From NCBI GenBank assembly GCA_022705325.1, contig JAKJER010000003.1, positions 181,419 through 245,418 of the forward strand: a stretch of DNA of 64,000 nucleotides, read 5' to 3'. A program made the position numbers and the translations under genes. This DNA comes from Planctomycetota bacterium (GTDB lineage: Bacteria > Planctomycetota > Phycisphaerae > SM23-33). Under the pieces are notes generated by a model. The model did no database searches and was not told where the DNA came from. It was given only the letters and a program-made list of their open reading frames with translations. This document shows, in pieces, positions 38,677 through 64,000 of the stretch (position 1 is its first letter; each line of letters begins with the position of its first letter).

Positions 38677-38711
38677 GTACGTGGTGCGGTATGCTCTTTG
38701 GGTTCCGCCCG

Positions 38712-40499: not shown

Positions 40500-40507
40500 G
40501 GATAGAC

Positions 40508-43605: not shown

Positions 43606-43741
43606 CCGCCCAGGGGCGAGAGAGGGTTTCGATGGAATTTCACGCCGACGCGCCAAGCAATTCGCCGCAGCAGCGTTAACCATATAACAGAAGTTGGGCG
43701 GCACCGAGGCCGCCGGACGCGAGACAGGAGAAAGGAACACA

Positions 43742-45029: not shown

Positions 45030-45101
45030 TCGCAGGCATGCCGCACTCCCTGGACCGCAGACCCATGCAGCAACCGGCAAGAAAGGAATCGCACAAGTCC
45101 G

Positions 45102-45593: not shown

Positions 45594-46303
45594 AGCGGGG
45601 CGGCTTCACACTCTTCGAGGCCCTGTTGGCCATTGGATTGTCCATCGGCATCGTCGGCGGGACGATGGCCCTGTACCAGCAGGCCGTCATGATCCGCCAA
45701 CGCATCAGCGAGGACCTCGAGGTCCTGACGGCCGAGCGGATCATCATGGACCGCATGACGCAAGAGATGCGTGCCGCGATCGTCTACCCGTTCCTTGGCT
45801 TTGGCCTGGAAGGCCAGGCCGACAGCATCACGTTCATGACCGCGACCGTCCCGGGCCCGGCTGCCTGGGCGGTTCGATCAGGATCCGAAGACCCCGTCCC
45901 ACCGGAGACGGACCTGCAACTGGTGACGTATCGCATGCGAACGTACGAGGATGACTACGGCATGCTCCAGGTCGCGGGGATCGAGCGAAGCTGCCAGCGG
46001 ATCCTGTCCTCCCCCACCGCCCAGGAAGGGGCCGACGTGTCCACCGTCCTGCTGACCCCCTACATTCAGCACATGCAGTTCGCCTTCTTTGACGGATCAG
46101 GCTGGACCAACATCTGGCAGGACAAGGGGCTCCCCCTGGCCGTCGAGGTGACGATGGGTTTCCCGCCCCTGCCCGAAGAGGTCGAGGCCCAGGATTATCC
46201 CTACCCGGTCTTTCGGCGCATGATCTACCTGCCCGGCGCGACCACCTCGCTCCAGGGCCCGCTCATCCGCGGGCTGGGCGGACGGAGAGGAGGGGGACGA
46301 TGA
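45590..46303 (+). CDS. Minor pseudopilin (GspJ-like)
   Basis: 237 aa starting MKRGG/FTLFEALLAIGLSIGIV. The start overlaps the previous stop (ATGA at 45590-45593) and is preceded by GAGGAGGA. Confidence 0.6.
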   Translation: MKRGGFTLFEALLAIGLSIGIVGGTMALYQQAVMIRQRISEDLEVLTAERIIMDRMTQEMRAAIVYPFLGFGLEGQADSITFMTATVPGPAAWAVRSGSEDPVPPETDLQLVTYRMRTYEDDYGMLQVAGIERSCQRILSSPTAQEGADVSTVLLTPYIQHMQFAFFDGSGWTNIWQDKGLPLAVEVTMGFPPLPEEVEAQDYPYPVFRRMIYLPGATTSLQGPLIRGLGGRRGGGR

Positions 46304-46324
46304 TGATTGCTGATTACGGATCGC

Positions 46325-46376
46325 GGATTGCCGATTGCAGACGATTGACGATTGTCGATTGTCGATTCTCGACTCG
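46325..46376. repeat. Degenerate heptamer tandem array (CGATTGN) in the gspJ-like / gspK spacer
   Basis: The units are ggattgc cgattgc (aga) cgattga cgattgt cgattgt cgattct cgactcg. This AT-richer patch lies in the 158-nt spacer. A direct decamer repeat ccgcagtccg (46436-46445 and 46451-46460) follows just before ATG 46462. Confidence 0.7.
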
Positions 46377-46461
46377 TCCTCGGTGTCCCAGCGTCCAGTC
46401 GCGAGTTGGGAATCGAAGATCGCATACGGAGAATTCCGCAGTCCGTGATCCGCAGTCCGCA

Positions 46462-50029: not shown

Positions 50030-51098
50030 GCGCGAGAAGACGATGGCTGGCCTGACCGCCGCCATGGCGGGGATCTTCCTGGGTTTCCTGACGATCAACG
50101 GCTTCGTGCTCAAACCGCTGCAGAAGATGGATGTCGACGCCCAGAAGCTCAGCGGGCAACTGGCGAGCTTGCAGCGAGAGAATGCAGCCCGCAAGAGCCT
50201 CGAGCCGCGTCTCAAGGAGTTGGTGTCGCGCTGCTTCGGCGGCGACGAACTCAAGGCGGGCGAGGAACTGCGGGCCCGGCTGGTGACGCTGATGGACCAG
50301 GCGGGGCTGTCCACCGAGAAGCGTCTGCTGAACCCGGTCACCGGACAGTCGGTCAGTGGCGCGTACAAGGAGATCGGACGGCGGGTACAGGTCAGCGGGA
50401 AGCTCGGCAACGCCGTCGACTTCCTCTATTTGCTCAATGCAGAGCCGCACCTGCACCGCCTGGACTCGCTCAGCCTCACACCCGCCCAGGGAGGCACCGT
50501 GGAGTTGAACCTGACCTACTCCACGCTCGTGCCAGCGGAGGGCTTGCCAGCCTCCAAGGACATCAAGCCGCTTCCCACGCAGCCCGCGCCCAACCTGCGA
50601 GAAGGCGAGCGGACACTGTACGATCCGATCGCGTCGCGAGATCTTCTGCGCCCGTACATCAAGCGCCCCCCGCCGCCTCCCCCGGTGCCGCAGCCCGTGC
50701 CCGCTGTTGCACGCCGCCATGATCCGCCCCCACCGCCTCCCCCGCCGCCAAAGACCAGCAGCGAGGGACGCTATCGCCTGGTCCTCATGCCGATGGCGCC
50801 GGGAGAGCCGTTCTCCGTGCTGGACCAGAGCACGCGCCAGACCTACTCCTACAACATCGGGCAGTTCCTGGGCGGCGGAAAGGTCGTCATGGTCGACTTC
50901 CGCCCCTGTCCCCTCCCGGACGACCCCGACACGATCTCGCCCAGCAGGCTCATTCTCCAGATCGGCGACGCCTACTGGGCCGTCGAGTATGGACAGACCC
51001 TCTCGGCCAAGCGACAATTGCGGAAGGATGAATTGCCTCCTGAATTGTCTGGCGCCGCAGCAGCGCCGGCCAGTCAACCGGCCTCGCCAGCCTCCTGA
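50022..51098 (+). CDS. PilO/GspM-like protein with C-terminal PilP/GspC-HR-like domain
   Basis: 358 aa, with an 8-nt overlap with the previous gene. It has an N-terminal TM (LTAAMAGIFLGFLTINGFVL), a coiled coil and a PilO-like domain (VSGKLGNAVDFLYLLNAEPHLHRLDSLSLTP). A Pro-rich linker (PPPPPPVPQPVP...PPPPPPPPK) follows. The last part is a ~90-aa beta-rich domain (YRLVLMPMAPGEPFSVLDQSTRQTYSYNIGQFLGGGKVVMVDF...LILQIGDAYWAVEYGQTL). Domain calls are by pattern only. Confidence 0.55.
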   Translation: MNKREKTMAGLTAAMAGIFLGFLTINGFVLKPLQKMDVDAQKLSGQLASLQRENAARKSLEPRLKELVSRCFGGDELKAGEELRARLVTLMDQAGLSTEKRLLNPVTGQSVSGAYKEIGRRVQVSGKLGNAVDFLYLLNAEPHLHRLDSLSLTPAQGGTVELNLTYSTLVPAEGLPASKDIKPLPTQPAPNLREGERTLYDPIASRDLLRPYIKRPPPPPPVPQPVPAVARRHDPPPPPPPPPKTSSEGRYRLVLMPMAPGEPFSVLDQSTRQTYSYNIGQFLGGGKVVMVDFRPCPLPDDPDTISPSRLILQIGDAYWAVEYGQTLSAKRQLRKDELPPELSGAAAAPASQPASPAS

Positions 51099-51350: not shown

Positions 51351-54300
51351 ATGCGAACTAACTGGATACTGGCTTTCGCGGTTATCTCCGCCCTTGCCGT
51401 GGCCCTGACTGCCCAGACGACCAAACCGTCGCCGCAGCCGGCCACCCAGCCAGCCGCCGCACCGACCACCCAGCCCGCCGTCGCTGCCGCGCCGACCACC
51501 AAGCCGGCCGTTGCCGCTGCGCCGACTACCCAGCCCGCCGTCGCTGCCGCACCGACCACCAAGCCGGCCGTTGTCGCTGCGCCGACTACCCAGCCCGCCG
51601 TCGCTGCCGCACCGACCACCAAGCCGGCCGTTGCCGCTGCGCCGACCACCCAGCCCGCCGTCGCTGCCGCACCGACCACCAAGCCGGCCGTTGCCGCTGC
51701 GCCGACCACCAAGCCCGCCGTCGCTGCCGCGCCGACCACCAAGCCGGCCGTTGCCGCTGCGCCGACCACCCAGCCCGCCGTCGCTGCCGCGCCGACTGTG
51801 AGACCGGCCGGGACGTACAGTAAGGACTCACCCAAGATCTTCCTCTTCCAGTTTAGCGGCTGTCCGTATCATGAGGTGATTCGCAAGTTCGCCCAGGCCT
51901 GTAAGAAACCGTTGTTGGGGGAAGTCGAGATTCCGGGCAGTCTCACGTTCTTCGACAGCGAACCTTACTGCTACGAAGAAGCCCTGGACACCCTCAACAT
52001 CCTCTTGAACATGCGGGGCTTCGCCCTGATCGAGTTCAAGCGGTATCTCCGCGTGGTGCAGGTAACCGAACTGGCCAACAACGCGAGCATCCTCCGCGGA
52101 CTGGACCAGGTCGGGGACATCCGGAACGAGCAGGTCGTCACCGTCTTGCTTCCGGTGGAGAATCTCGATCCGGAGGCCGCCTCCAAAGCCATCGTCCGCA
52201 TGGTGTCTTCGTACGGCTCGATCACTCCCATGCCTCGAGGCAAGGGTGTTCTCATCACCGACCGTCTGTCCAGCGTTCGCCGCATTCAGGACATGATCCA
52301 GATGCTGGACGCCGAGCGGGCGACCGCCAGCGACATCAAGACCATCCAGATCAAGAAGGCTTCGGCCAAGTCCGTCGCTTCGGTCATCAATCAGGTCCTG
52401 GGCGGTCCGTCTTCCAGCCCCGAACGCAGGTCGTCATCGGCTCCGCCGGCCTCTTCGGGTGACAGCGTGTCAGCCTACAGCGATGACCGCACCAATCTCC
52501 TGTTCCTGCGCGGTGTGGGCGCCAAGCTGCAACTGGCCGAGCAACTCGTGGAGAAGTTGGACAGCGAAGCGACCAGCGATGTCAGCGACATGCGCCTGAT
52601 CGAGTTGAAGAACGCCCGCGCCGAGGACGTAGCCAAGACCATCAGCGAAGTCATGCCCCGCGACCAGATCCAGGTGGCGGGCCCGCCCAGCAGCGACTCC
52701 AGCCGACGCCACTATCCCGTCACCGTGGCCAAGGGCAAGGTCGTCGCCGAGCCGGAGACCAACCGCCTGATCGTCTCCGCTCCGCTGGACGTGATGGTCA
52801 AGATCGAGGAACTGATCAAGAAGCTCGACGTGGCCAGCGACACCAGCGGCGGGGTCAAGGTCCTGCGTCTCAAGACCGCCGACGCCGCCCAGCTTGCCCC
52901 TATTGTCTCGGCCGCGGTGGCCAAGCAAACCCTCGCCGCTGGCGGGGCGAGAAGGGGAATGGTCACTGTCACCGCAGACAGCCGCACGAATTCTCTGGTG
53001 ATCGTGGGCCCGGCCGGCGACATCCAGGCAGCCGAGAAGCTCGTCGCCGAACTCGACCGCCCGCTGGACAAGGAAGAGGAACGCCAGATCCGCATCATCC
53101 AGTTACCCTCGGGCAACGCCGAGAAGCTGGCCAGTGCCATCTCCCGCGTGCTGGACAGCTCCCCGTCTTCGCATTACGGCTCCAGCCGCTATGGGTCGTC
53201 CTCGTCCCGCTCCCAGACCAGCCGCCCGCGTATCGAGGCCGACTCCGGCACCAACAGTCTGCTGATCTCGGCTGCCCCAAGCGACTGGCCGCAGATCGAA
53301 TCCATCCTGAAGCAGATCATTCCGCCCCCACCGCCTGACCAGCCCGCGGCCGCCACGCCGCTGGCCTTGACGACTCCGGTGCTGCGCCACGTGCCGCTCA
53401 AGTTCGCCAAGGCGGAGGATCTCGCCACCACGCTGCTGTCCGTGTTCGGCACGCGCCGGCGCAGCGAGGCCGTTTCCATCATCATCACCCCGTCGGCCCG
53501 CACCAACAGTCTGCTCATCTCGGCCGCCGAACCCGACCAGATCGCCATGGGGGAGTTGATCAAGACTCTCGACGTCGACTCCAGCGAGAAGCTCGACCCG
53601 GTCCGCATCGTCGAACTGAAGGTGGCTGACGCCGCCAAGGTCGCCGACGCCATCCAGGCCGTCCTGCCCCCGCGCCCCGTCGGGCGACGCGGCGAGACCC
53701 ACCAGGTCACCATCCACGCCGACACCGCCACCAACACCCTCTTTATCCGCGCCGGCGAGGCCGAGCAGAAGCTCATCGACGAGGTTATAGCCCGGATGGA
53801 CAAGGGCGCAATCGACCCCACCATTGTCCGCGAGACGCGAATCATCGCCCTCAAGTTCGTCCCTGCCAGCCAGATGGCGGCCAGTGTCCAGCAGTTCTTC
53901 CAGTCGGCCGGCGGCTCGCCCTCCAGCCCATACGGCTCGTCGTATTATCGCCGCCGGAGCTACTCCTCCGCCTCCGGAGAAAAGGCCTTCGATTCGCTGG
54001 TCGTCGCCGCCGCACCGGGAGACCAGGCCCTCATCGTGGAAGGACCCAAGAAGAAGGTCGACGAGGTCGCCGCCTTCGTCGCCAAACTCGACACCCAGGA
54101 CACCGGCCAGGCGACAATTGTCCGCGTCTATACCCTCAAGGAAGCCGACGCCGGCGAAATCTCCCGGACCCTGTCGGCCACTTTCTCCAAGAAGTGGCAG
54201 GACCAGAAGCGACGCGATCCGAAGCTGGCCGACCCCGAGCCGTCGTTTGAAATCAACGCCGGCGCCAACCAGCTCATCATCGCCGCCACCGAGAAGCAGC

Positions 54301-57300
54301 TTACCGAGATAGACGCGTTGATCGCCCAACTCGAGAAGGCCCCGGCTGTGACCAGCCAGACCAAGACCTTCCCCCTCAAGCACGCCAAGGCCGAGGAACT
54401 GGTCAACGTCCTCCAGACGATGCTGACCTCAGGCGCTCCCAGCCCCTACAGCGGCTATGCGTACAGTCGGCGATCCAGAAGCGTCGAGGGCGAGTTGAAG
54501 ATCGCCGCCATCGCCGCCTCCAATTCGCTGGTCATCCAGGGCCCGCCAGCCAAGATGGCCAAGGCCGAGCAACTCATCGCCTCCTTCGACACGCCCCAGG
54601 CGGGCGAGTCCTCGCTGATCAGCATCGTGCCGCTCAAGGCCGCCTCCGCCTCCCAACTCGCGGTCACCCTCAAGAACATGCTGCCTCCCCAGAGTCGAGA
54701 GCGAGAAAGCGAGTTGGTCATTCAGGCGGACACGGCGAGCAACTCCCTGCTCATCCGCGCCAGCGCCACGCAGCGAAAGATCATCGACGAACTGATCCCC
54801 AAGCTCGACGTCGAGTTGGCCGAAGGCACCCGCGAGATGCGGGTCGTGCCCGTAATGTTCGTCTCGGCCTCTCAGATCGCCCAGACCGTGTCGCAGGTCT
54901 TCCGCGGCCAGAACGGGACATCTTCGTCGTCTTCCTCCTATCGACGATCGTACTATCGGTCGTACGACGCCCCGCAGGCGGGTCCGGGCAGCGACGAGAT
55001 TCTTATCACGCCCGCCCCCAACGACCGCAGCATCGTCATCGAAGCCCCCAAGAAGAAGATCGAGCCGATTGTTCAGCTCATCGCAACCCTTGACGTTGCC
55101 GAAGGCACCGCCAAGGCCAACCAGATCCGCACCTACCAGCTCAAGAACGCCAACGCAGCCGAAGTTTCCCGCGTTCTTTCGGGCATGTACACCCAGCGAA
55201 CCAGCGGATACGGCGAGGCCCCTTCCGCGCGAGGCGGCTCGGGCCCGACCGCCACCCCGCCCAAGTTCGACCACGACACCGCGACCAATCAGCTCGTCGT
55301 CTCGGCCAGCGACGAACAGTTCGTCGAGATCGACGCACTGATCAAGAAGCTGGAAGAGGCGCCCCAACTGGCCACCCAGACCAAGACCTTCCCGCTCAAG
55401 CACGTGCGGGCGAGCGAGGTCCTGCCGGTGCTGACCAACCTGCTGAGCGAAACGCCCGCCTCCACCCCCGAGGGCTACGCGGGCTACTCGCCCTACTCCT
55501 CCCGTCGGCGCTACGGAGCGTCTGCGTCGTCGGAGCTTCGCCTGGCCGCCCTCCCCGGCGCCAATAGCATCGTCGCCCAGGGCCCGCCGCCCAAGATGCT
55601 CAAGGTCGAGCAACTCATCGCTTCCTTCGACACGCCCCAGGCGGGCGAGTCCTCGCTGATCACGATGGTGCCGCTGAAGAACGCCTCGGCCGCCAAACTC
55701 GCCGAGACCCTCAAGTCCATGCTGCCCGCCGCCTCGCGAGACAAGCCAAGCGAACTGGTCGTCCAGGCCGACACCGCGACCAACTCTCTGCTCATCCGCG
55801 CCGACGGCACCCAGCGGAAGATGCTCGACGAGTTGATCCTCAAACTCGACGTCGAGGTCGTCCAGACCGCCCGCGAAATGCGGGTCGTTCCGGTGCAGTT
55901 CGTCTCCGCCGCCCAGATCGCCCAGACCGTCTCCCAAGTCTTCCTGAAACAGGACGCTTCGTCGTCCTCCTACCGGCGATCCTCGTACTACTACCGCTCG
56001 TATTACCGCTCCTACGACGAGCCCGAAGAACCCACCCGCACCGGCGCGGATGCCGACAAGATCGTCGTGACGGCCTCCCCCAACGACCGCTCCGTCATCG
56101 TCGAGGCCCCCAAGCTGAAGATCGAGCCTGTCGTTCAGCTCATCACGACCCTGGACGTGCCCGAGGGCACGGCCAAGCCCCAGCAGATCCGCACCTACCA
56201 GCTCAAGAACGCCAACGCAGCTGAAACCGCCCGCATCCTGAGCAATATGTACGCCCAGCGTCAGAACGGCAGCGTCAGCAGCTACGGCGAGGAAGGCAGT
56301 CCAAGCCGGACCGCCAAGTCGAAGATCCCCGCGCCGAAGTTCGACCACGACGCCGGATCCAATCAGCTTGTCATCTCGGCCAACGACGAGCAGTTCGTCG
56401 AAATCGAAGCCCTGATCAAGACGCTGGATGAGACGCCCCAACTGGCCACGCAGACCAAGACGTTCCCGCTCAAGCACGCCAGGGCCAGCGAGATCGTCCC
56501 GCTGCTGACCAGCCTGTTGAGCGACACGCCCTCGTCCCCGGCGGTCGGCAGCTACTCGCGGTATTCATCGCGAAGTCGCTACGGCGCGTCGGCGACCGCC
56601 GGAGAGGTCCACGTCGCCACCCTGCCCGGGACCAACTCTGTGATTGTGCAGGGCCCGCCGGCCAAACTCACCCAGGCCGAGCAGTTGATCTCCACGTTCG
56701 ACACGCCCGAAGCGGGCGGCTCGTCGCTGGTGACGGTGATCCCGCTCAAGAACGCCTCGGCCGTCACGCTCGCCGAGACGTTGCGGAGCATGCTGCCCCC
56801 GCCCGTGCGGGGAAGGCCCGAGGAGATCGTCATCCAGGCCGACAGCCTGACCAACTCGCTGTTGGTCCGAGCTCCCGAAGACCAGCGCAAGACTATCGAC
56901 GACCTCATCGCCAAGCTCGACGGCGGCCTGGCCGATAATGCCCAGACCCGCGAGATGCGGATCATCCCGGTCAAGCACCTGTCGGCCGCCCAACTCGCAG
57001 AGACCGTCAGCGTCATGTACCAGCAACTCCGCGAGGCCCGGCGCGGGCTCCGCGCCCGTCCCGTTGACCCGGGCGAGCAGGTCGTCATCACCCCCTCTCC
57101 CAATGACCGCTCGATCGTCGTCGAAGCCCCCAAGAAGAAGGTAGAGGAGATCGCCAAGCTGGTGGCCGATCTGGACACCGAGGAGAACAGCTTCCAGATC
57201 CTCGTGCGGACCTACCAGCTCAAGACCGCCAGTGCATCGGAGCTGGCCCGTTCCCTGACCAACATCTTCGCCGCCAAAGTCGCCGGCTCCGCCTCGCCCG

Positions 57301-60300
57301 GCCGGCGCCCCGGCGCCGTGCCCAATCGCGCCGGTCCGCAGCCCACCTTCGACGTCGACGCCGCCAGCAACCAACTCCTGGTCGCCGCCACGTCTGAACA
57401 ACTCATCGAGATCGAGCAGCTCATCCAGAAGATGGACAATCCGGAGGTGCAGGCCGTCCAGACCCGCATCTTCCCCATCCAGCACGCCAAGGCCGACGAG
57501 CTGGTCACTCTCCTTCAGACGATGCTGAATGAGAATCCCCCCTCGGCCGCCTACGGCAGCTCGGCGTACTACTCGCGACGCTACCGCCCGACCGGGTCGT
57601 CCAGTGGAGACGACATCCGCATTTCCACGCTGCCCGGCACGAACAGCATTGTCGTCCAGGGGCCGCCCAACAAGCTTACGCGGGCCGAACAGCTCATCAA
57701 GAGCTTTGACACGCCCGAGGCGGCCGTCGCCGCCACCGTCACCATCATCCCCATCAAGAACGCCTCCGCGGCCACCCTGGTCGAGACCCTGCGGGCCATG
57801 CTCCCGCCGGTCAAGGGTCGGGCCGAGGAAGTGTTCATCCAGGCCGACATCCTGACCAACTCCGTGCTCATCCGCGCTCCCGAGACCCAACGGAAAATGG
57901 TCACCGAGTTGGTCGCCAAGCTGGACACCCAGAGCGAGCTTACCCGCGAGATGCGCGTTATCCCGCTCACCTTCACCAGCGCCACCCAACTCGCCAGCGC
58001 CCTGCAGGTCATGTACCAGCAGCACATGGCCACCCGGGGCGGCCCGCGGGCCAAGCCGGTGGACCCGGCCGAGCAGGTCATCTTCACCCCCGCGCCGCAC
58101 GACCAGGCCCTGGTCGTCGAGGCGCCCAAGAAGAAGATGGAGGAGATCGCCGCCCTCATCGAGAAGCTGGACGTCCAGGAAAGCCCCGACCGCCTCACGG
58201 TACGCACCTACCAGTTGGCCGAGAACTCCGACGCGGTCGAGACCGCCCGTACGCTGGCCAAGCTCTTTACCGAGACCCGCGTTCGCCCGGGCGCGATCGC
58301 GGGCAATCAACAGCAGCCCCGCTTCGAGGCCGACGGAGTGGGCAACCAGCTCATCATCGCCGCCACGCCCAAGCAGTTCGAGGAGATCGAGCCGCTGCTG
58401 AAGAAGCTCCAGGACTCCGCCCAGCTTGCCGTGCGAAGCAAAACCTACCAGCTCAAGTTCGCCAAGGCCGCCGACATCGTCCAGATGCTCCAGTCCATGC
58501 TGACCGGGACCACCGGCCGGTCGCGGTACTCCGCCTATGGGGACCCGGCCGCCGCGTCGAGCGAGGTCCGTGTCGCTGCCGTCAACGGCAGCAACAGTGT
58601 CTTCGTCCAGGGGCCGCCGGCCAAGCTGGCCATGGCCGACGAACTGATCCGCACCTTCGACACCGAGCAGGCGGCTGCCCGCAGCGTGATTCAGATCATC
58701 AAGCTCAAGAACGCCCAGGCGGCCTCGCTGGCCCAGGCCGTCAACGCCACGCTGGAGGCCCGGGCCGCCCGCCGTCCTTACGGCGAGCAGGCCGGCGCCG
58801 ACGACGGAAAGGTCACCGTCACGCCCGAGCCCAACTCCAACAGCCTTCTGGTCCGCGGGCCGCTGGCCGAGATTCCCTCCGTGCTGGAGATGATCCGCGA
58901 CCTGGATGAGGGCGGGACGAGCGCCAAGAGCGAAGTCCGCATCTTCCCGATCAAGAACTCCGACGCATACGAGCTTTCGACAACCCTGGGCAGACTGGTG
59001 CAGGACATGATCGCCCAGCAGACGCGCGCTCGCGGCGACGTGCCCGTGCCGGCCTTCAGCATCGCCGCCGACACCCGCACCAACTCGCTCATCGTCTCCA
59101 CCACCTCCGCCTACTTCGCCATCGTCGAGCAACTCCTGGAGAACCTCGACAAGGAACAGCCCATCCGCGACGTTCAGTACATCGCTCTGACCAACGCCCA
59201 AGCCGTCGACGTAGCCGAGAAGGTCAACGCCCTCTTCACCGACCGCAAAGGGTCCGACAAGCCTGTCATCGAGGCGGAGGAGTACACCAATTCCCTCACC
59301 GTCATCGCCAAGGCGGTGGACCTGCTGACGATCCAGGAAATGGTGGAGAAGCTCGACAAGGGACGGCGCGAACTTCAGGTCCGGGTCGTCCCCATCAAGC
59401 AGATCAAGGCCGAACGGATGGCCGAGATCATCCAGCGGGTATACGGGCAGACGACGAGCAGCCGTGTCATCGTCACCGGCCAGTCCCCCCCGACGCGGAT
59501 GGGGATCGAGTTGCCCGCCCCTCAACCGACGCCCGCTCCGCCCCCGCCGGCGGGCAAAGGCCCCGCCGCTTCGGCCAAGCCGTGGACCGGCAGCGTTCCT
59601 CGCCCGGCGACGCAGCCAGCCACCCGGCCCACCACGCGACCGGAGAGCGCCCCAGCCGCCAAGGACGATGGCGAGTTGGAGGAGAACCCTCCGATCACCA
59701 TCGCCATCGACCATAAGAGCAACACGCTGATCATCTCGGGCCCGCCCCAGGAGATCGACAACATCCAGGGCCTCATCGACCAGATGATGACCTCGCCCGA
59801 GGAGGCCGAGGCTGAGTTCCGGACCTATAGGATCGAGCACGCCGACCCGGTGGTTCTGGCCCAGACGCTGGAGGACATGTTCAACCCCAAGCCCAAGGTA
59901 GTCTACCTCCAAGCCCGTACCGGACAGCCGGCGCAGGCCCCGGCTGAACCGCCCCCGCCCATTACTGTACAGGCCGACGCCCGCACTCGCTCCATTGTCG
60001 TCCGGGCGAAAGTCATCGACTTCGACATGATCGAGCCGCTGATCAAGTACCTCGACCAGGAGACTTCCGCCCACAGCGAACTGCGCGTCTTCCCGCTGGA
60101 GAACACCGAGGCCGGCGAGGTCGCCGACAACCTCAAGGAGATGTTCAACCTGGCCCAGAAGGGGACCGCGGCCCAGCCCGCGCCCCAGCCTCAGGCCGGG
60201 CGCACGGCCCAGCGCGGCCGGGCCGACCGTGTCCGCCAGGTCATGGACCTGCAGGTCGCTGCCGGCGGCTCAGCCAAGGTCGATCCCTATTCGGCCATCT

Positions 60301-63300
60301 CCATCTCCGCCAACCGCAACACCAACAGCGTGGTCGTCTCGGCGCCTAAGGAAGTCATGAAGCTCGTCGAGTCGATCATTCAGGAGTTGGACCAGTCGGC
60401 TCTCCAGTCCAAGACCGTGGTCCGCATGTACCCGCTCAAGCACGCCGAGGTCACGCCGACGGTGTCGGCCCTGCGGGAGATCTTCTCGCAGGCGGCCCGC
60501 ACCAGCCCGCTGCGCTCGTCCCGCACCGGTTCGACGCCCGGAGCCTCGCTGCGAGACGCCCCGATCGTCGTCACCGGCGACGAGGTCGGCAGGCAGATCA
60601 TCGTGTCCGCCCCCGTCACCCAGCATGAAACGGTCGCCAAGGTCATCCAGGACATCGACACCGCCCAGGGAGTCGGGCAGATCCTGGTGCAGGTCTACCG
60701 CATCCAGAACGCGGAGGCGACCAGCGTCGCCGCTTCACTCAGTACCATGTTCTCGTCGACGGCCTCCGCCGCCGGCACGGGGCGGCGTGTCCGCACTGCC
60801 ACCGGAGGCGGCGGCCCCAGGATCAGCGCCGACGCCAGCAGCAACTGCATCGTGGTGCGGGCCGTCCAGGAGGACCACGCCGAGATCACCCGTCTGCTGG
60901 AGGAACTGGACGCCTCGCCGGCCGACAAGTATCCCGTGCGCCGCATCCCCATCCAGAACGCAAGCCCCACCGTCCTGGCCACCAACCTGCGGGCGGTCTT
61001 CGCCGGCCGTTCAGGCACGGCTGGCGGGCGGCGAGGCGGTGCCGCCGGACGCGACGGACTGGTCATACAGCCTGACGAGGACGCCCGCATGCTCCTGGTC
61101 CGAGCGGACGAGGAGACCTACAAGAAGATCGAGGAGATGGTCCAGGCCCTCGATGCCGTCAGCGTCTCCGACAAGCTCCAGACCGTCATCATCCCGCTCG
61201 AACACGGGCAGGCGACCAGCGTGGCCGCCGCATTATCCCAGGCGTTCGGCGCCTCCGCACGCGGGGGACGCCGCTCCACCAGCCCCGAAGACGAAGTCCG
61301 CATCGCTGCGGAGACGTTCACCAACTCCATCCTGATCACCGCCAGCGAGAAGAATCTGCTGAAGATCCAGGCGATGGTCCAGAAGCTTGAGAAGGACACG
61401 GCCGGCGGGGTCAAGAGCGAGTTCCTTGTGCTCACCAACGCCAAGGCCGACGACCTGGCGACCGTCCTGGCACGCCTGGCCGGCGCGAGCGGACGCGGCG
61501 CCCGGGGCGCAGCCGGGACCGGCGGGGTCACCGTGGCCGCCGATGCCGCCGCCAACGCCCTGGTGTTCTCCGGACCGGCCGCCGAGGTCGCGAAGCTCTC
61601 GACGATGGCCAAGCAACTCGACCAGGCGGCTCAGGGCTCGGCTGTCCAGGTGTTCATGATCCCGTTGAAGAACAACATCGCGTCGGAGGTGGCAGCCGCC
61701 ATCCAGCAACTCCACGCCCAGCAGGCGGTGCGCCGCGGCGGGGCCGCTTCCCGCGAACCGCTCTCGGTCACGTTCGACGACTCCGCCAACGTCGTCGTCC
61801 TGTCCACCACCAAGCGACAGTATGACGAGATTTCACAGTGGGTGACCAAGTTCGAGGAACTGAAGGTCACGCGCGAAGCCCCGAAGATCATCGCCCTGGT
61901 CAACAGCGACCCGCAGGAGATCGAGCGGGCCCTTCGCCAGATGTTCGCCGGCGGGTCGGCCCCTGGAGGGCGCGGCTCGCGGACCGTTCGCACCACCGGC
62001 AAGGTCGAGATCGCCTCTCTGCCACAGCAGCGTGCCCTGCTGGTCAAGGCTGGCGCCGAGGACTTCAAGCTCATCAGCGATCTGGTCAAGTCGCTGGACG
62101 AGTCGGCCCCGACCGCCATGCCCAAGCAGACAATGGTCGCGCTGAAGCACGCGCCGGCCGCCAGCGTGGCCTCCGCCTTGACGGCGGCCTTCGGCCCCGG
62201 CAGGCGAGGGCGCACCGCCCTGGCCCGACCCGAGGATGAGGTCCGCGTCGTGGCCGAGGCGGCCTCCAACTCCGTCATCATCACCGCCGACGAGAAGAAC
62301 ACGACCGCCGTGCTGAGCCTGATCGCCAAGCTGGACACCGACGAGGCCTCGGGCAAGGCCCAGTTCCTGATCCTCAAGAAGGCCAAAGCCGTCGAGTTGG
62401 CCCGCGTGCTCAGCGCGGCCACGTCGCGGGGCGCCCGCAAGCCGGGCCAGCAGCCGCTGGTAGTCACGGCGGATGCCGCCAGCAACGCCCTGGTCCTCTC
62501 GGGCCCGCCCAACGACATCGAAGCCGCCATCGCCATGGCCACCAAGCTGGACGAGGCCGCCACGGCGGGCATCTCGGAAGTCTTCCTGATCCCGCTCAAG
62601 ACGGGCCAGGCCAGCGAGGTCGCCGCCACCGTACAGCAGATCTACCAGCAGCAGGCCGCGGCGACGCGCTCGGCGGGGCGGACGATCGACCCCCTCGCCG
62701 TCTCGGCTGATGACTCGGCCAACGTGATCATCCTGGCCACCACCAAGGTCATGCATGACCAGGTGAACCAGTGGATCGGCAAGGTCGAAGAGATGAAGGT
62801 CGGCCAGGGCGAGCCGCGCCTGGTCACGCTCGAGAACGCCGATGTGGCCGAGGTAGAGAAGGCCGTGCGGGCGTTGTTCATCACTGTCCGGGCGACCGCC
62901 GGGCGTGGCGCCCGCGGGGCGGCCGGGGCCACCGGCGCCCGTATCGAGGTGGCTTCCCTGCCCCAGCAGCGGGCCTTGCTGATCAAGTCCGGCGAGGAAG
63001 ACTTCAAGGCCATCAACGACCTGATCATGGCACTGGACGCAGCCGCCGTCACCCGCCTGAACAAGCAGACGATCATTCCGCTGAAGCACGCCCAGGCCAC
63101 CAGCGTAGCTCCGGCTTTGCAGTCGGCATTTCAGCAGCAGATTCGCGGGCGCGGAGCGGCGGTGAAGCCAGAAGATGAGGTCCGCATCATCGCCGAGCCG
63201 ATCTCCAACACATTGATCGTGGCTGCCAGCGACAAGAACACGGTCCTCGTGCAGGGCCTGGTGGCCAAGCTGGATACGGACGAGGCCTCGGGCAAGGCCC

Positions 63301-64000
63301 AGTTCCTGATTCTCCAGAAGGCCAAGGCGGTCGAACTGGCCAAGGTGCTGTCTACGGTGTCGGCCAGTCGCAGCCGTAAGCCCGGCCAGCAACCGCTGAT
63401 CATCACCGCCGACGTTGCCAGCAACGCCTTGGTCATGTCGGGCTCCGCGACCGAGATGGACGCGGCGATCAAGATGGCGCAGGAGTTGGACGGCGCCGCC
63501 AGCGAGAGCCTCGCGCAGGTATTCCTGATCACGCTCAAGAGCGGACAGGCCAGCGACGTGGCTGCCACGGTTCAGCAGATTTATCAGCAGCAGACGGCGG
63601 CCGCCCGCACCGCGGGCCGCTCCATCGATCCCCTGGCGGTCTCGGCGGATGACTCCGCCAACGTGCTCATCCTCTCAACCACCAAGGCGATGCATGACCA
63701 GGTGAACCAGTGGGTGCAGAAGGTTGAGGAGATGAAACTCAACCAGGAAGCGCCCCAGTTGGTCACCCTCGAGAACGCCGACGTCCAGGAAGTGGAGAAG
63801 GCCATCCGACAGATCTTCGTCTCCGGGAAGGTCAGCCGAACGGGAAAGGCCATCGGGAAGATCGAATTGGCCGTGTTGCCCCAGCAGCGAGCCTTGTTGA
63901 TCAAGGCGGGCGAGGAGGACTTCAAGGCCATCAACGAGTTGATCAAGTCCCTGGACGCTGCGGCCGTTGCCGCCAAGCACCAGCAGACGCTGATTACACT
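51351..64000 (+). CDS. Giant secretin (GspD)-like protein with about 47 tandem secretin N-domain-like modules; 5' partial, continues beyond the window
   Basis: This ORF is not in the supplied track. ATG 51351 has GGAG 8 nt upstream, and the frame with codons starting at positions divisible by 3 has no stop through nt 64000 (>=4,216 codons). I translated it manually end to end. It has signal peptide MRTNWILAFAVISALAVALTAQ, an (APTT[QK]PAVAA)x11 linker and an N0-like domain (KIFLFQFSGCPYHEVIRKFAQACKKPLLGEVEIPGSLTFFDSEPYCYEEALDTLNILLNMRGFALIEFKRYLRVVQV). Repeated modules of the form xxTFPLKHAKAEELVNVLQTML...(loop)...IQADTASNSLLIRASATQRKIIDELIPKLD follow. All checked repeat anchors (54360, 55380, 56454, 57462, 58437, 61416, 62358, 63297) are in this frame. 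It is co-directional with, and directly downstream of, the T2SS genes. Confidence 0.85.
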   Translation, partial: MRTNWILAFAVISALAVALTAQTTKPSPQPATQPAAAPTTQPAVAAAPTTKPAVAAAPTTQPAVAAAPTTKPAVVAAPTTQPAVAAAPTTKPAVAAAPTTQPAVAAAPTTKPAVAAAPTTKPAVAAAPTTKPAVAAAPTTQPAVAAAPTVRPAGTYSKDSPKIFLFQFSGCPYHEVIRKFAQACKKPLLGEVEIPGSLTFFDSEPYCYEEALDTLNILLNMRGFALIEFKRYLRVVQVTELANNASILRGLDQVGDIRNEQVVTVLLPVENLDPEAASKAIVRMVSSYGSITPMPRGKGVLITDRLSSVRRIQDMIQMLDAERATASDIKTIQIKKASAKSVASVINQVLGGPSSSPERRSSSAPPASSGDSVSAYSDDRTNLLFLRGVGAKLQLAEQLVEKLDSEATSDVSDMRLIELKNARAEDVAKTISEVMPRDQIQVAGPPSSDSSRRHYPVTVAKGKVVAEPETNRLIVSAPLDVMVKIEELIKKLDVASDTSGGVKVLRLKTADAAQLAPIVSAAVAKQTLAAGGARRGMVTVTADSRTNSLVIVGPAGDIQAAEKLVAELDRPLDKEEERQIRIIQLPSGNAEKLASAISRVLDSSPSSHYGSSRYGSSSSRSQTSRPRIEADSGTNSLLISAAPSDWPQIESILKQIIPPPPPDQPAAATPLALTTPVLRHVPLKFAKAEDLATTLLSVFGTRRRSEAVSIIITPSARTNSLLISAAEPDQIAMGELIKTLDVDSSEKLDPVRIVELKVADAAKVADAIQAVLPPRPVGRRGETHQVTIHADTATNTLFIRAGEAEQKLIDEVIARMDKGAIDPTIVRETRIIALKFVPASQMAASVQQFFQSAGGSPSSPYGSSYYRRRSYSSASGEKAFDSLVVAAAPGDQALIVEGPKKKVDEVAAFVAKLDTQDTGQATIVRVYTLKEADAGEISRTLSATFSKKWQDQKRRDPKLADPEPSFEINAGANQLIIAATEKQLTEIDALIAQLEKAPAVTSQTKTFPLKHAKAEELVNVLQTMLTSGAPSPYSGYAYSRRSRSVEGELKIAAIAASNSLVIQGPPAKMAKAEQLIASFDTPQAGESSLISIVPLKAASASQLAVTLKNMLPPQSRERESELVIQADTASNSLLIRASATQRKIIDELIPKLDVELAEGTREMRVVPVMFVSASQIAQTVSQVFRGQNGTSSSSSSYRRSYYRSYDAPQAGPGSDEILITPAPNDRSIVIEAPKKKIEPIVQLIATLDVAEGTAKANQIRTYQLKNANAAEVSRVLSGMYTQRTSGYGEAPSARGGSGPTATPPKFDHDTATNQLVVSASDEQFVEIDALIKKLEEAPQLATQTKTFPLKHVRASEVLPVLTNLLSETPASTPEGYAGYSPYSSRRRYGASASSELRLAALPGANSIVAQGPPPKMLKVEQLIASFDTPQAGESSLITMVPLKNASAAKLAETLKSMLPAASRDKPSELVVQADTATNSLLIRADGTQRKMLDELILKLDVEVVQTAREMRVVPVQFVSAAQIAQTVSQVFLKQDASSSSYRRSSYYYRSYYRSYDEPEEPTRTGADADKIVVTASPNDRSVIVEAPKLKIEPVVQLITTLDVPEGTAKPQQIRTYQLKNANAAETARILSNMYAQRQNGSVSSYGEEGSPSRTAKSKIPAPKFDHDAGSNQLVISANDEQFVEIEALIKTLDETPQLATQTKTFPLKHARASEIVPLLTSLLSDTPSSPAVGSYSRYSSRSRYGASATAGEVHVATLPGTNSVIVQGPPAKLTQAEQLISTFDTPEAGGSSLVTVIPLKNASAVTLAETLRSMLPPPVRGRPEEIVIQADSLTNSLLVRAPEDQRKTIDDLIAKLDGGLADNAQTREMRIIPVKHLSAAQLAETVSVMYQQLREARRGLRARPVDPGEQVVITPSPNDRSIVVEAPKKKVEEIAKLVADLDTEENSFQILVRTYQLKTASASELARSLTNIFAAKVAGSASPGRRPGAVPNRAGPQPTFDVDAASNQLLVAATSEQLIEIEQLIQKMDNPEVQAVQTRIFPIQHAKADELVTLLQTMLNENPPSAAYGSSAYYSRRYRPTGSSSGDDIRISTLPGTNSIVVQGPPNKLTRAEQLIKSFDTPEAAVAATVTIIPIKNASAATLVETLRAMLPPVKGRAEEVFIQADILTNSVLIRAPETQRKMVTELVAKLDTQSELTREMRVIPLTFTSATQLASALQVMYQQHMATRGGPRAKPVDPAEQVIFTPAPHDQALVVEAPKKKMEEIAALIEKLDVQESPDRLTVRTYQLAENSDAVETARTLAKLFTETRVRPGAIAGNQQQPRFEADGVGNQLIIAATPKQFEEIEPLLKKLQDSAQLAVRSKTYQLKFAKAADIVQMLQSMLTGTTGRSRYSAYGDPAAASSEVRVAAVNGSNSVFVQGPPAKLAMADELIRTFDTEQAAARSVIQIIKLKNAQAASLAQAVNATLEARAARRPYGEQAGADDGKVTVTPEPNSNSLLVRGPLAEIPSVLEMIRDLDEGGTSAKSEVRIFPIKNSDAYELSTTLGRLVQDMIAQQTRARGDVPVPAFSIAADTRTNSLIVSTTSAYFAIVEQLLENLDKEQPIRDVQYIALTNAQAVDVAEKVNALFTDRKGSDKPVIEAEEYTNSLTVIAKAVDLLTIQEMVEKLDKGRRELQVRVVPIKQIKAERMAEIIQRVYGQTTSSRVIVTGQSPPTRMGIELPAPQPTPAPPPPAGKGPAASAKPWTGSVPRPATQPATRPTTRPESAPAAKDDGELEENPPITIAIDHKSNTLIISGPPQEIDNIQGLIDQMMTSPEEAEAEFRTYRIEHADPVVLAQTLEDMFNPKPKVVYLQARTGQPAQAPAEPPPPITVQADARTRSIVVRAKVIDFDMIEPLIKYLDQETSAHSELRVFPLENTEAGEVADNLKEMFNLAQKGTAAQPAPQPQAGRTAQRGRADRVRQVMDLQVAAGGSAKVDPYSAISISANRNTNSVVVSAPKEVMKLVESIIQELDQSALQSKTVVRMYPLKHAEVTPTVSALREIFSQAARTSPLRSSRTGSTPGASLRDAPIVVTGDEVGRQIIVSAPVTQHETVAKVIQDIDTAQGVGQILVQVYRIQNAEATSVAASLSTMFSSTASAAGTGRRVRTATGGGGPRISADASSNCIVVRAVQEDHAEITRLLEELDASPADKYPVRRIPIQNASPTVLATNLRAVFAGRSGTAGGRRGGAAGRDGLVIQPDEDARMLLVRADEETYKKIEEMVQALDAVSVSDKLQTVIIPLEHGQATSVAAALSQAFGASARGGRRSTSPEDEVRIAAETFTNSILITASEKNLLKIQAMVQKLEKDTAGGVKSEFLVLTNAKADDLATVLARLAGASGRGARGAAGTGGVTVAADAAANALVFSGPAAEVAKLSTMAKQLDQAAQGSAVQVFMIPLKNNIASEVAAAIQQLHAQQAVRRGGAASREPLSVTFDDSANVVVLSTTKRQYDEISQWVTKFEELKVTREAPKIIALVNSDPQEIERALRQMFAGGSAPGGRGSRTVRTTGKVEIASLPQQRALLVKAGAEDFKLISDLVKSLDESAPTAMPKQTMVALKHAPAASVASALTAAFGPGRRGRTALARPEDEVRVVAEAASNSVIITADEKNTTAVLSLIAKLDTDEASGKAQFLILKKAKAVELARVLSAATSRGARKPGQQPLVVTADAASNALVLSGPPNDIEAAIAMATKLDEAATAGISEVFLIPLKTGQASEVAATVQQIYQQQAAATRSAGRTIDPLAVSADDSANVIILATTKVMHDQVNQWIGKVEEMKVGQGEPRLVTLENADVAEVEKAVRALFITVRATAGRGARGAAGATGARIEVASLPQQRALLIKSGEEDFKAINDLIMALDAAAVTRLNKQTIIPLKHAQATSVAPALQSAFQQQIRGRGAAVKPEDEVRIIAEPISNTLIVAASDKNTVLVQGLVAKLDTDEASGKAQFLILQKAKAVELAKVLSTVSASRSRKPGQQPLIITADVASNALVMSGSATEMDAAIKMAQELDGAASESLAQVFLITLKSGQASDVAATVQQIYQQQTAAARTAGRSIDPLAVSADDSANVLILSTTKAMHDQVNQWVQKVEEMKLNQEAPQLVTLENADVQEVEKAIRQIFVSGKVSRTGKAIGKIELAVLPQQRALLIKAGEEDFKAINELIKSLDAAAVAAKHQQTLIT
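51459..51800 (+). repeat. In-frame 30-nt tandem repeat (11 copies plus a degenerate 12th) encoding APTT[Q/K]PAVAA
   Basis: Units start at 51459, 51489 and so on up to 51759. Two nucleotide variants largely alternate (gcaccgaccacccagcccgccgtcgctgcc and gcgccgaccaccaagccggccgttgccgct), giving a 60-nt higher-order period. The track ORFs 51344..51835(-) and 51511..51801(+) are shadows of this repeat. Confidence 0.95.
54360..58436 (+). repeat. Super-repeat family 1 inside the giant ORF: four copies of a 4-module (~1 kb) unit
   Basis: Anchors are TKTFPLKHAKAEE (54360), TKTFPLKHVRASE (55380), TKTFPLKHARASE (56454) and TRIFPIQHAKADE (57462). A diverged fifth copy starts at SKTYQLKFAKAAD (58437). Periods are 1020, 1074, 1008 and 975 nt. 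Each copy holds four distinct module types in fixed order. Confidence 0.85.
61416..64000 (+). repeat. Super-repeat family 2 inside the giant ORF: 4-module (~0.94 kb) unit, at least 2.7 copies, continuing past the window
   Basis: Anchors are SEFLVLTNAKADDLA (61416), AQFLILKKAKAVELA (62358) and AQFLILQKAKAVELA (63297). Periods are 942 and 939 nt. A 60-nt stretch aligned by eye (62341-62400 against 63281-63340) is identical at 54 of 60 positions. Confidence 0.85.

What the first reader, a model, noticed from the sequence alone, without database searches (positions are those of the whole stretch)
51351..64000. Assembly caveat: the near-identical ~1-kb super-repeats are prone to collapse or expansion
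Copies about 0.94-1.07 kb long with up to ~90% local nucleotide identity, plus a 30-nt perfect tandem array, exceed short-read lengths. The true module number may differ from what is in this window. The absence of frame disruption over 12.65 kb argues that the assembly is at least self-consistent.
Basis: inference. Interest (0 to 1): 0.3.

Follow-up and report, generated by a model that had tools for sequence, protein, structure and literature searches.

The report
Giant 75-domain secretin gene, repeats real
The region is the first 61% of a real 20.7-kb gene for a giant outer-membrane secretion channel with about 75 copies of one small domain; the large repeats inside the window assemble reliably, and only a short 30-base array and two repeat units just past the window's end confuse assemblers.

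Summary
Window 51351-64000 (+) is one unbroken reading frame. It encodes residues 1-4216 of a 6,885-aa type II secretion secretin (GspD) of an uncultured Phycisphaerae bacterium, the last gene of a gspE-F-G-H-I-J-K-L-M operon. It has a signal peptide, 11 APTT[Q/K]PAVAA decapeptides (the 30-nt array), a weak N0, then 46 tandem Secretin_N domains.

The ~1-kb super-repeats are real four-domain cassettes: family A x5, family B x3 in the window. They are not near-identical: 55-72% nucleotide identity, 90% only in 100-nt windows, longest shared exact word 40 nt. The array is not perfect: 80% match at period 30, 96% at period 60.

Other public assemblies allow a partial test.
- Two reproduce window 51797-64000 with no mismatch or indel.
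- The array is 11 units here and 3 in ADurb.Bin126. It holds a 100-N gap in GCA_035417265.1 and is cut, with a different unit order, in a fourth assembly.
- Three assemblies break 0.2-1.3 kb past the window's end. There unit B4 is a mosaic of B5 (157-nt exact repeat) and B2 (63-nt exact repeat).

The caveat is therefore right for the array and the distal B units, and wrong for most of the flagged interval. The gene is deposited and auto-annotated; I found no paper describing such giant secretins.

The parts
51351..64000 (+). 5' 12,650 nt (aa 1-4216) of a 20,658-nt, 6,885-aa giant secretin (GspD) gene. The gene would end at window-equivalent position 72008.
   Evidence: Stop-free frame. Pfam Secretin_N E=0 with 46 stretches. 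The composite with L002 and L001 is identical to database protein P0190.
51351..51416 (+). Signal peptide MRTNWILAFAVISALAVALTAQ, judged by inspection.
   Evidence: Read directly from the sequence. ADurb.Bin126 (P0185/L003) starts with the same N-terminal residues; the composite built from ATG 51351 is identical to P0190.
51453..51796 (+). Imperfect 30/60-nt tandem array encoding 11 APTT[Q/K]PAV[A/V]A decapeptides. This is the one assembly-unstable element inside the window.
   Evidence: TRF. Longest exact self-match 63 nt. 3 units in L003, N gap in L002, different unit order in P0187.
51870..52052 (+). Weak N0-like domain (aa 174-234).
   Evidence: PF21305 at 20.4 bits, below its 27-bit cut-off. 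TIGR02517 aligns profile positions 9-334 to aa 174-495.
52143..52319 (+). First Secretin_N (N1-like) domain, aa 265-323.
   Evidence: Pfam PF03958, 28.8 bits.
52335..63968 (+). 46 consecutive Secretin_N-type domains (66-141 aa each), joined mostly by 3-6-residue linkers.
   Evidence: Iterated HMM built from the protein itself. Pfam reports 46 stretches. Domain alignment A2.
53826..58928 (+). Super-repeat family A: five tandem four-domain cassettes (A1-A5), 55-72% nucleotide identity.
   Evidence: AF2 model of A2 shows four beta-alpha-beta-beta-alpha domains. Foldseek top hits are T2SS secretin N domains.
61179..63977 (+). Super-repeat family B: cassettes B1-B3, 60-72% nucleotide identity to each other. 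B4-B6 lie beyond the window.
63978..64000 (+). First 23 nt of cassette B4, cut by the window's end.
62447..63040 (+). Second half of B2. It has a 93.4%-identical partner (B4b) 1,857 nt downstream, outside the window, including a 63-nt exact match at 62900-62962.
   Evidence: The HOD83940.1 fragment starts inside the B4 copy of that 63-nt repeat.
40409..42184 (+). gspE ATPase.
   Evidence: TIGR02533 at 658.8 bits, above the 630.25 cut-off. Pfam T2SSE.
42403..43605 (+). gspF platform protein.
   Evidence: Pfam T2SSF, two stretches.
43694..44209 (+). gspG major pseudopilin.
   Evidence: TIGR01710 at 108 bits, above the 88.85 cut-off. Pfam T2SSG and N_methyl.
43995..46303 (+). Minor pseudopilins: H-like (prepilin motif inside ORF 43995-45029), I-like (45102-45593) and J (45590-46303).
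   Evidence: GFTLxE-type N-terminal motifs read in the translations. T2SSJ at 25.4 bits, below its cut-off.
46300..47865 (+). gspK.
   Evidence: Pfam T2SSK_1st and T2SSK.
48071..50029 (+). PilM/GspL-like assembly-platform protein.
   Evidence: PF11104 at 75.8 bits.
50022..51098 (+). Possible GspM/GspC-like protein; hits are weak.
   Evidence: NF040576 at 30.9 bits and NF041515 at 19.2 bits, both below their cut-offs.

Best explanation
The flagged interval is the 5' 61% of a genuine gene. It encodes a 6,885-residue type II secretion secretin (GspD family) of an uncultured Phycisphaerae bacterium (Planctomycetota), and it is the last gene of a gspE-F-G-H-I-J-K-L-M(-like) operon.

ARCHITECTURE. 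Sec signal peptide; Pro/Thr/Ala decapeptide linker (the 30-nt array); weak N0; about 75 tandem Secretin_N (beta-alpha-beta-beta-alpha) domains; C-terminal secretin pore domain.

ORIGIN OF THE SUPER-REPEATS. The ~1-kb repeats are tandem duplications of four-domain cassettes. Family A has 5 copies and family B has 6, so they account for 44 of the domains. Inside the window the copies are old and diverged, so they do not threaten assembly, and the cassette number seen here is reproduced by other assemblies.

WHERE THE RISK REALLY LIES. There are two sites.
- The decapeptide array at 51453-51796 has an uncertain or polymorphic unit number and order.
- The young mosaic cassette B4 lies just outside the window. 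Its first half is 94.9% identical to B5 and its second half 93.4% identical to B2. Short-read contigs break there.

INFERRED MECHANISM (not shown). As in solved secretins, a 12-15-mer would form the outer-membrane pore. The N domains would stack as rings into a periplasmic conduit towards the inner-membrane platform. With about 75 domains the conduit or tether would be more than ten times longer than any characterised one. That could be an adaptation to the enlarged periplasm of Planctomycetota. Cassette duplication and gene conversion would be the means of changing its length.

The confidence given applies to the identity of the gene, the reality of the repeats and the location of the assembly hazards. 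The stacked-conduit mechanism is much less certain (see the section on the most novel reading).
For: GENE AND FAMILY.
- Open frame.
- Pfam Secretin_N at 1520.8 bits with 46 stretches.
- 46 contiguous domains with short linkers.
- The continuation in L001/L003 carries PF00263 Secretin. Its last 1,305 aa pass the GspD equivalog TIGR02517 at 600.8 bits against a 351.35 cut-off.
- The operon is supported.
- The AF2 model of cassette A2 has four beta-alpha-beta-beta-alpha domains. All its significant Foldseek PDB hits are secretins, and the top ones are T2SS secretin N domains. PDB sequence hits are to GspD.

FULL LENGTH.
- Window + L002 + L001 tile into 20,658 nt and 6,885 aa with no internal stop, giving 74 domains by my HMM plus one further N1-like domain.
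- This composite is identical to database protein P0190, which sits on a 348,935-nt contig.

REPEATS IN THE WINDOW ARE OLD.
- 55-72% nucleotide identity and dS 0.7-1.0.
- Exact repeats no longer than 40 nt outside the array.

REPRODUCIBILITY.
- L002 is 100% identical over 12,265 nt.
- L003 is colinear over 23.3 kb with 0 gaps, and none of its mismatches fall inside the window.

HAZARDS.
- Array.
- The 157-nt and 63-nt exact repeats, with contig ends exactly at them.

RELATIVES. At least 150 clusters of relatives with 21-61 domains; 111 of them look complete.
Against: - No expression, localisation or structural data exist for this protein or for any giant relative found here.
- Ring stacking of about 75 domains is extrapolated from 3-6-ring secretins.
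- AF2 gave low inter-domain confidence (pTM 0.32). A flexible beads-on-a-string tether is therefore equally compatible.
- N0 is below Pfam's cut-off.
- The assemblies compared may share read sets or sequencing technology, so concordance is not full independence.
- Extra passes through the B4/B5 loop cannot be excluded without long reads or depth data.
Confidence: 0.85

Rival explanations
1. The cassette number inside the window is an assembly artefact. Super-repeats would have been collapsed or expanded, so the true gene has a different number of A or B1-B3 units.
For: Units are 0.9-1.1 kb, longer than short reads. All unit lengths are multiples of 3, so an error would stay in frame. Relatives are often fragmented on short contigs.
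Against: Units share only 55-72% identity and exact words of 40 nt or less. Any k-mer above 40, and every read, is therefore unique. Two other assemblies reproduce the 12.2 kb without a single mismatch or indel. All 46 domains are intact with regular linkers.
Confidence: 0.03
2. The 3-unit versus 11-unit difference in the decapeptide array is genuine population polymorphism (a coding VNTR), not assembly collapse in ADurb.Bin126.
For: Short in-frame tandem arrays slip easily. A fourth assembly shows a different unit order, K Q K Q K Q against K Q K K K Q, which could be allelic. L003 differs from the composite by 6 SNPs elsewhere, so it is a distinct consensus.
Against: Q-K-Q is exactly the shortest path through a collapsed de Bruijn graph. 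L003 is otherwise identical to the window across 12 kb. Two other assemblies hold at least 6-7 units yet still fail inside the array, which shows the array does defeat assemblers.
Confidence: 0.35
3. The gene holds more B4/B5-like cassettes than the 6,885-aa version shows. The loop flanked by the 157-nt repeat would be traversed more than once, so even the complete assemblies are collapsed there.
For: The 157-nt exact repeat is longer than typical k-mers and about as long as 150-nt reads. Three assemblies stop there. The same position in both repeat copies is A/A in one assembly and G/G in another. That could mean reads from several copies are merged.
Against: Two complete assemblies on 127-kb and 349-kb contigs agree on one pass. 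L002 spans B4a-R-B4b and L001 spans B5a-R-B5b, which together give the minimal path with a 1,022-nt overlap and 1 mismatch.
Confidence: 0.12
4. The protein is not a secretion channel with a stacked conduit. It would be a secretin-anchored flexible tether, or a type IV pilus or DNA-uptake secretin, with the N domains acting as spacers or binding modules.
For: AF2 gives no fixed inter-domain geometry (pTM 0.32). The C-terminus also passes the PilQ subfamily model at 308.7 bits against a 284.35 cut-off. The assembly protein is PilM-like. Long disordered Ser/Tyr/Arg loops sit inside many domains.
Against: The best model is the GspD equivalog at 600.8 bits. The GspE and GspG equivalogs pass their cut-offs, and GspJ/K-type minor pseudopilins are present. 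The domain is the ring-building fold of all solved secretins.
Confidence: 0.3

Closest known systems
OQB85541.1, 'Type II secretion system protein D precursor' of Planctomycetes bacterium ADurb.Bin126 (GCA_002071695.1, contig MWDR01000013.1)
   Same: Essentially the same gene. It is colinear, with 6 mismatches in 23.3 kb downstream of the array and none inside the window part. It has the same cassette number and the same flanking genes.
   Different: It is 80 aa (240 nt) shorter: 3 instead of 11 decapeptide units in the N-terminal array.
Classical T2SS secretin GspD/PulD/XcpQ (e.g. PDB 5wq7, 5wq8, 6hcg, 5wln)
   Same: C-terminal secretin domain and GspD equivalog model passed. N domains have the same fold. 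Encoded with gspE, F, G and K.
   Different: Classical GspD has N0-N3 and about 650-750 aa (chain lengths). This protein has about 75 N domains and 6,885 aa, plus a decapeptide linker ahead of N0. No clear GspC was found.
Thermus thermophilus PilQ (PMC5745081)
   Same: A secretin whose extra N domains, six stacked rings N0-N5, let it span most of an unusually wide periplasm. [quoted passage not shown] It is the nearest functional precedent for adding length by adding N domains.
   Different: 757 aa and six rings, against 6,885 aa and about 75 domains. It belongs to a type IV pilus and DNA-uptake system, not a T2SS operon. No sequence-level orthology was tested.
Uncharacterised giant multi-Secretin_N proteins in metagenomes and MAGs (P0035-P0183; names include 'type II secretion system protein D' and 'hypothetical protein [Phycisphaeraceae bacterium]')
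   Same: Same architecture, with an N0-like region, dozens of Secretin_N domains and a C-terminal secretin. 111 of 150 cluster representatives look complete. The C-terminal 2,500 aa are 46-55% identical to the best of them.
   Different: They have 21-61 domains and at most 5,532 aa. This one is the longest seen here. Its A and B cassette families are lineage-specific expansions (32-39% identity over the window part).

Membership tests
Secretin superfamily / T2SS secretin GspD | C-terminal outer-membrane secretin pore domain (PF00263) | tested here: met
   The domain is not in the window. It is present in the continuation: L001 aa 2305-2471, 183.8 bits; L003, 184.7 bits. The continuation is tied to the window by a 1,022-nt overlap and by identity of the composite to P0190.
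Secretin superfamily / T2SS secretin GspD | Score above NCBIfam's curated cut-off for the GspD equivalog TIGR02517 | tested here: met
   The last 1,305 aa score 600.8 bits against a 351.35 cut-off. PilQ (308.7) and SctC (268.2) score lower.
Secretin superfamily / T2SS secretin GspD | Periplasmic Secretin_N (N1-N3 type, beta-alpha-beta-beta-alpha) domains | tested here: met
   PF03958 E=0 with 46 stretches in the window. AF2 secondary structure. Foldseek hits to GspD, PulD and XcpQ N domains.
Secretin superfamily / T2SS secretin GspD | N-terminal N0 domain | tested here: inconclusive
   PF21305 scores 20.4 bits, below its 27-bit cut-off. TIGR02517 profile positions 9-334 align to aa 174-495.
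Secretin superfamily / T2SS secretin GspD | Encoded with T2SS core genes (GspE ATPase, GspF, GspG major pseudopilin, minor pseudopilins) | tested here: met
   GspE TIGR02533 at 658.8 bits against 630.25. GspG TIGR01710 at 108 against 88.85. T2SSF and T2SSK pass Pfam cut-offs; T2SSJ is weak.
Secretin superfamily / T2SS secretin GspD | Canonical four-domain periplasmic part (N0-N3) contacting GspC | tested here: not met
   About 75 N domains instead of 3. Only a very weak GspC-like hit, 19.2 bits against a 150 cut-off, in ORF 50022-51098.
Secretin superfamily / T2SS secretin GspD | Homo-oligomeric (12-15-mer) ring in the outer membrane; secretion of folded proteins | not testable with these tools
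   Needs biochemistry or cryo-EM.
Collapsed or expanded repeat (assembly artefact) | Repeat copies share exact words longer than the assembler's k-mer or the read length | tested here: not met
   For the window's super-repeats the longest shared exact word is 40 nt. The feature is met only by the array (63 nt) and, outside the window, by B4/B5 (157 nt) and B2/B4 (63 nt).
Collapsed or expanded repeat (assembly artefact) | Different assemblies of the same locus disagree in copy number or break at the repeat | tested here: met
   Met for the array (11 units, 3 units, an N gap, a truncation) and for B4/B5. Not met for window 51797-64000, where two other assemblies agree.
Collapsed or expanded repeat (assembly artefact) | Read depth over the repeat deviates from the flanks; long reads contradict the structure | not testable with these tools
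   No reads are available.

The most novel reading that the evidence does not exclude
The roughly 75 Secretin_N domains of each protomer stack into a continuous multi-ring tube. From memory of about 3-4 nm per ring in solved secretins, it would be of the order of 0.2-0.3 micrometres long; this was not computed here. It would be by far the longest secretion conduit known, built to bridge the enlarged and variable periplasm of Planctomycetota. Its length would be tuned in evolution by duplication and gene conversion of four-domain cassettes, as seen in the young B2/B4/B5 mosaic and in the paired A/A versus G/G variant in the two 157-nt repeat copies.
Probability: 0.2. Interest if true: 0.75.

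Novelty: new variant of a known kind. Interest (0 to 1): 0.4.

Why it matters
PRACTICAL. The result shows which parts of this 20.7-kb gene can be trusted. The cassette count in the window can. The decapeptide array and the B4/B5 junction cannot without long reads. It also shows that an intact frame says nothing about unit-level errors. Anyone counting domains in giant repetitive genes from MAGs should compare assemblies in this way.

BIOLOGICAL. The largest secretin characterised so far has six periplasmic rings (PMC5745081). A family of secretins with 20-75 N domains is widespread in uncultured Phycisphaerae and is complete on many contigs. That raises a testable question: how does a type II secretion machine connect two membranes in cells with a very wide periplasm? 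Four literature searches here found no description of these proteins.

Tried and rejected
- The word-indexed protein search with the whole 4,216-aa fragment timed out.
- Two shorter searches returned only 25-42%-identical, mostly partial hits. Identical and near-identical proteins do exist in the larger collection. They surfaced only through the exhaustive profile search and the cluster look-up.
- The GTDB genome scan with family-B patterns found nothing.
- The metagenome scan gave one locus, L001. I first read it as an ortholog from a related strain, because L001 1-590 is 93-97% identical to window B2. That reading was rejected once L002 showed that L001 is the downstream part of the same gene, and that the match is to paralogous unit B4.
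- The look-up of P0190, probably the window's own record, returned nothing. I therefore could not learn the sequencing technology of the source.
- Literature searches found nothing on giant secretins. The terms were secretin + Planctomycetes + giant; N domains / periplasm; giant genes; crateriform. Two candidate papers mention giant genes but not secretins.
- The antisense ORFs of up to 1,169 aa inside the gene are treated as GC-rich shadow frames and were not pursued.
Full report
WHAT IS AT THE COORDINATES

Frame +3 is free of stop codons from 51273 to the last base of the window. An ATG at 51351, preceded by GGAG, opens a protein that starts MRTNWILAFAVISALAVALTAQ, a typical Sec signal peptide by inspection.

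The ORF listing does not show this ORF because it runs off the window. The long antisense ORFs it does list, up to 1,169 aa, are what a 66% G+C coding region produces.

Pfam scores the 4,216 residues at 1520.8 bits for Secretin_N (PF03958) with 46 separate stretches, plus a weak GspD N0 hit. An HMM iterated on the protein itself places 46 domains of 66-141 residues back to back from residue 329 to 4206. Their linkers are mostly 3-6 residues. One further N1-like domain lies at residues 265-323.

CHECKING THE OBSERVATION

The ~1-kb periodicity is real and lies far beyond chance: self-BLASTN hits reach 837 and 636 bits. It comes from two families of four-domain cassettes.
- Family A has five copies, starting at 53826, 54828, 55869, 56946 and 57942.
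- Family B has three copies in the window, starting at 61179, 62124 and 63063. A fourth begins 23 nt before the window ends.

Codon-aware alignments give these values:
- whole-unit nucleotide identity: 55-72%
- amino-acid identity: 38-67%
- Nei-Gojobori dS: 0.7-1.0
- best 100-nt window: 90% (A1/A2 and A2/A3)
- best 300-nt window: 80%

The title's 'near-identical' is not.

The longest exact word shared by any two places in the gene part of the window is 40 nt outside the array. That is shorter than the k-mers of current assemblers and shorter than any read.

The '30-nt perfect tandem array' is 11.4 copies with 80% matches at period 30, or 5.7 copies with 96% at period 60. It encodes eleven APTT[Q/K]PAV[A/V]A decapeptides in the order Q K Q K Q K Q K K K Q. 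Its longest internal exact match is 63 nt.

The argument that an intact frame shows self-consistency is weak, because every unit length is a multiple of three.

FINDING THE REST OF THE GENE

Word-indexed protein searches found only distant partial relatives, and the GTDB scan found nothing.

A metagenome scan with a family-B alignment returned one contig end, L001 (Ga0116149_1000310). It carries 27 more Secretin_N domains, a C-terminal Secretin domain (PF00263) and a stop codon.

An exhaustive profile search with the 46 window domains put P0034 on top. P0034 is identical to window residues 176-4216, apart from the Met of a GTG start, and runs 443 residues further. Its contig is L002 (GCA_035417265.1, DAOLOT010000126.1, 14,990 nt).

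L002 relates to the other sequences as follows.
- It matches window 51736-64000 with 0 mismatches in 12,265 nt.
- Its last 1,022 nt overlap the first 1,022 nt of L001 with one mismatch.

Tiling window + L002 + L001 gives 20,658 nt and 6,885 codons with no internal stop and 74 HMM-defined N domains. The cluster look-up then showed a protein of exactly that sequence, P0190, on a 348,935-nt NCBI contig. It also showed OQB85541.1 (6,805 aa, 'Type II secretion system protein D precursor', Planctomycetes bacterium ADurb.Bin126) and six fragments from NCBI, ENA and JGI assemblies. P0190's record could not be fetched; it is probably the window's own source.

TESTING THE ASSEMBLY CAVEAT AGAINST OTHER ASSEMBLIES

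(a) Super-repeats inside the window. L002 is base-identical from 51736 to 64000. The ADurb.Bin126 contig (L003) is colinear with the composite over 23,316 nt with no gap. Its only mismatches downstream of the array lie at window-equivalent 64289, 65228, 65573, 70571, 72621 and 73006, all outside the window. The cassette count in the flagged interval is therefore reproduced.

(b) The decapeptide array.
- L003 has three units (Q K Q) where the window has eleven, an in-frame difference of exactly 240 nt.
- L002 has a run of 100 N in the middle of the array.
- HOD82649.1 (P0187) begins without a Met inside the array. Its last six units read K Q K Q K Q against the window's K Q K K K Q.

(c) Family B beyond the window. 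Unit B4 (window-equivalent 63978-64916) is a mosaic.
- Its first 448 nt are 94.9% identical to B5, including a 157-nt exact repeat at 64233-64389 and 65172-65328.
- Its second half is 93.4% identical to the second half of B2 (62447-63040), including a 63-nt exact repeat.

Contig ends coincide with these repeats.
- L002 ends on the last base of the second 157-nt copy.
- L001 begins 74 nt into the first copy.
- P0187 ends inside the first copy.
- P0186 begins inside the B4 copy of the 63-nt repeat.

L002 spans B4a-R-B4b and L001 spans B5a-R-B5b, where R is the 157-nt repeat. The one-pass path is therefore supported, and the two complete versions agree with it. Extra passes through the loop still cannot be formally excluded without depth or long reads.

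I could not determine whether these assemblies rest on independent read sets. The six SNPs show that L003 is at least a different consensus.

WHAT THE GENE IS

The last 1,305 residues pass NCBIfam's GspD equivalog (600.8 bits, cut-off 351.35), ahead of PilQ and SctC.

Upstream, on the same strand, lie these genes:
- gspE (TIGR02533, 658.8 bits against 630.25)
- gspF
- gspG (TIGR01710, 108 bits against 88.85)
- three minor pseudopilins with prepilin motifs
- gspK
- a PilM/GspL-like protein
- a weak GspM/C-like ORF

An AlphaFold2 model of cassette A2 has mean pLDDT 69.3 and pTM 0.32. It shows four beta-alpha-beta-beta-alpha domains, separated by disordered Ser/Tyr/Arg-rich loops. All 25 Foldseek PDB hits with E at or below 0.001 are secretins; the top 19 are T2SS secretins or their N domains. 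Sequence hits in the PDB are to GspD.

HOW IT PROBABLY WORKS

Shown: family membership, domain fold, operon context, architecture and repeat history.

Inferred from solved secretins: a 12-15-mer forms the outer-membrane pore, and the N domains form stacked periplasmic rings reaching the inner-membrane platform. In Thermus thermophilus PilQ, six rings are described as letting the complex span most of a wide periplasm, and that complex is called one of the largest characterised (PMC5745081).

With about 75 N domains the periplasmic part here would be more than ten times longer. From memory of about 3-4 nm per ring, that is roughly 0.2-0.3 micrometres if fully stacked. The enlarged periplasm of Planctomycetota is an obvious candidate reason. 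The low inter-domain confidence of the model leaves a flexible tether equally possible.

EVOLUTION OF THE REPEATS

Forty-four of the domains come from the two cassette families. Families A and B1-B3 are old. B4 is a recent chimera of B5-like and B2-like halves.

The same position in both 157-nt copies is A/A in one assembly and G/G in the other. That fits ongoing gene conversion, or else merging of reads from the two copies.

COMPARISON AND NOVELTY

The exact gene is already deposited and auto-annotated (OQB85541.1).

At least 150 clusters at 50% identity share the architecture. Of these, 111 look complete, with a median of 4,205 aa and 39 domains and a maximum of 5,532 aa and 57-58 domains. 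All those inspected come from MAGs or metagenomes, and several are annotated Phycisphaerae. This protein is the longest seen here.

Four literature searches found no description of such secretins. A preprint on giant genes stresses repeat-driven assembly fragmentation but does not mention secretins.

VERDICT

The hazards are real but localised to the 344-nt array and to B4/B5 just outside the window. The cassette count across about 53.8-64.0 kb is robust.

As an assembly note the finding is routine. The underlying object, an extreme variant of a well-known machine component, is moderately interesting.

Noticed in passing
window-equivalent 64289 and 65228 (L003 15699 and 16638; outside the window, in units B4 and B5): The same position in both copies of the 157-nt exact repeat is A/A in the window-lineage composite and G/G in ADurb.Bin126. 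This suggests gene conversion between cassettes, or reads from both copies being merged into one consensus.
   Followed up: partly
window 54900-55000, 55450-55540, 55950-56060, 56520-56610 (loops within family A domains 1 and 3): Many N domains carry 15-30-residue Ser/Tyr/Arg-rich low-complexity insertions between helix 1 and strand 2, for example SSSYRRSSYYYRSYYRSYDEPEE. AF2 predicts them disordered (pLDDT below 50). Their role, for instance lining or plugging the channel, is unknown.
   Followed up: no
window 36943-38631 (+): A 562-aa protein with all three GH3-family domains (PF03321, PF23571, PF23572). These are acyl-acid amido synthetases best known from plants. It lies two ORFs upstream of the T2SS operon.
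   Followed up: no
window 38223-40325 (+) and 50022-51098 (+): ORFs of 700 aa and 358 aa flank or sit within the T2SS operon, and neither has a Pfam hit. The second has only sub-threshold GspM and GspC similarity. It may be the platform component that contacts the giant secretin.
   Followed up: partly
window 54429-60074 (-) and others: Long antisense ORFs of 682 and 1,169 aa lie opposite the secretin gene. They are most likely shadow frames of a 66% G+C gene with repetitive codon usage, not genes.
   Followed up: no
L001 1 / L002 14990: The JGI contig starts exactly 83 nt before the end of the first 157-nt repeat copy. The NCBI contig ends exactly at the end of the second copy. This is a textbook signature of de Bruijn-graph contig termination at a repeat, and 83 may reflect the k-mer used.
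   Followed up: partly
database searches (versus 38, 52): The word-indexed homology search missed proteins identical to the query that are present in the larger collection. Negative results from that tool for long repetitive proteins should not be read as absence.
   Followed up: yes
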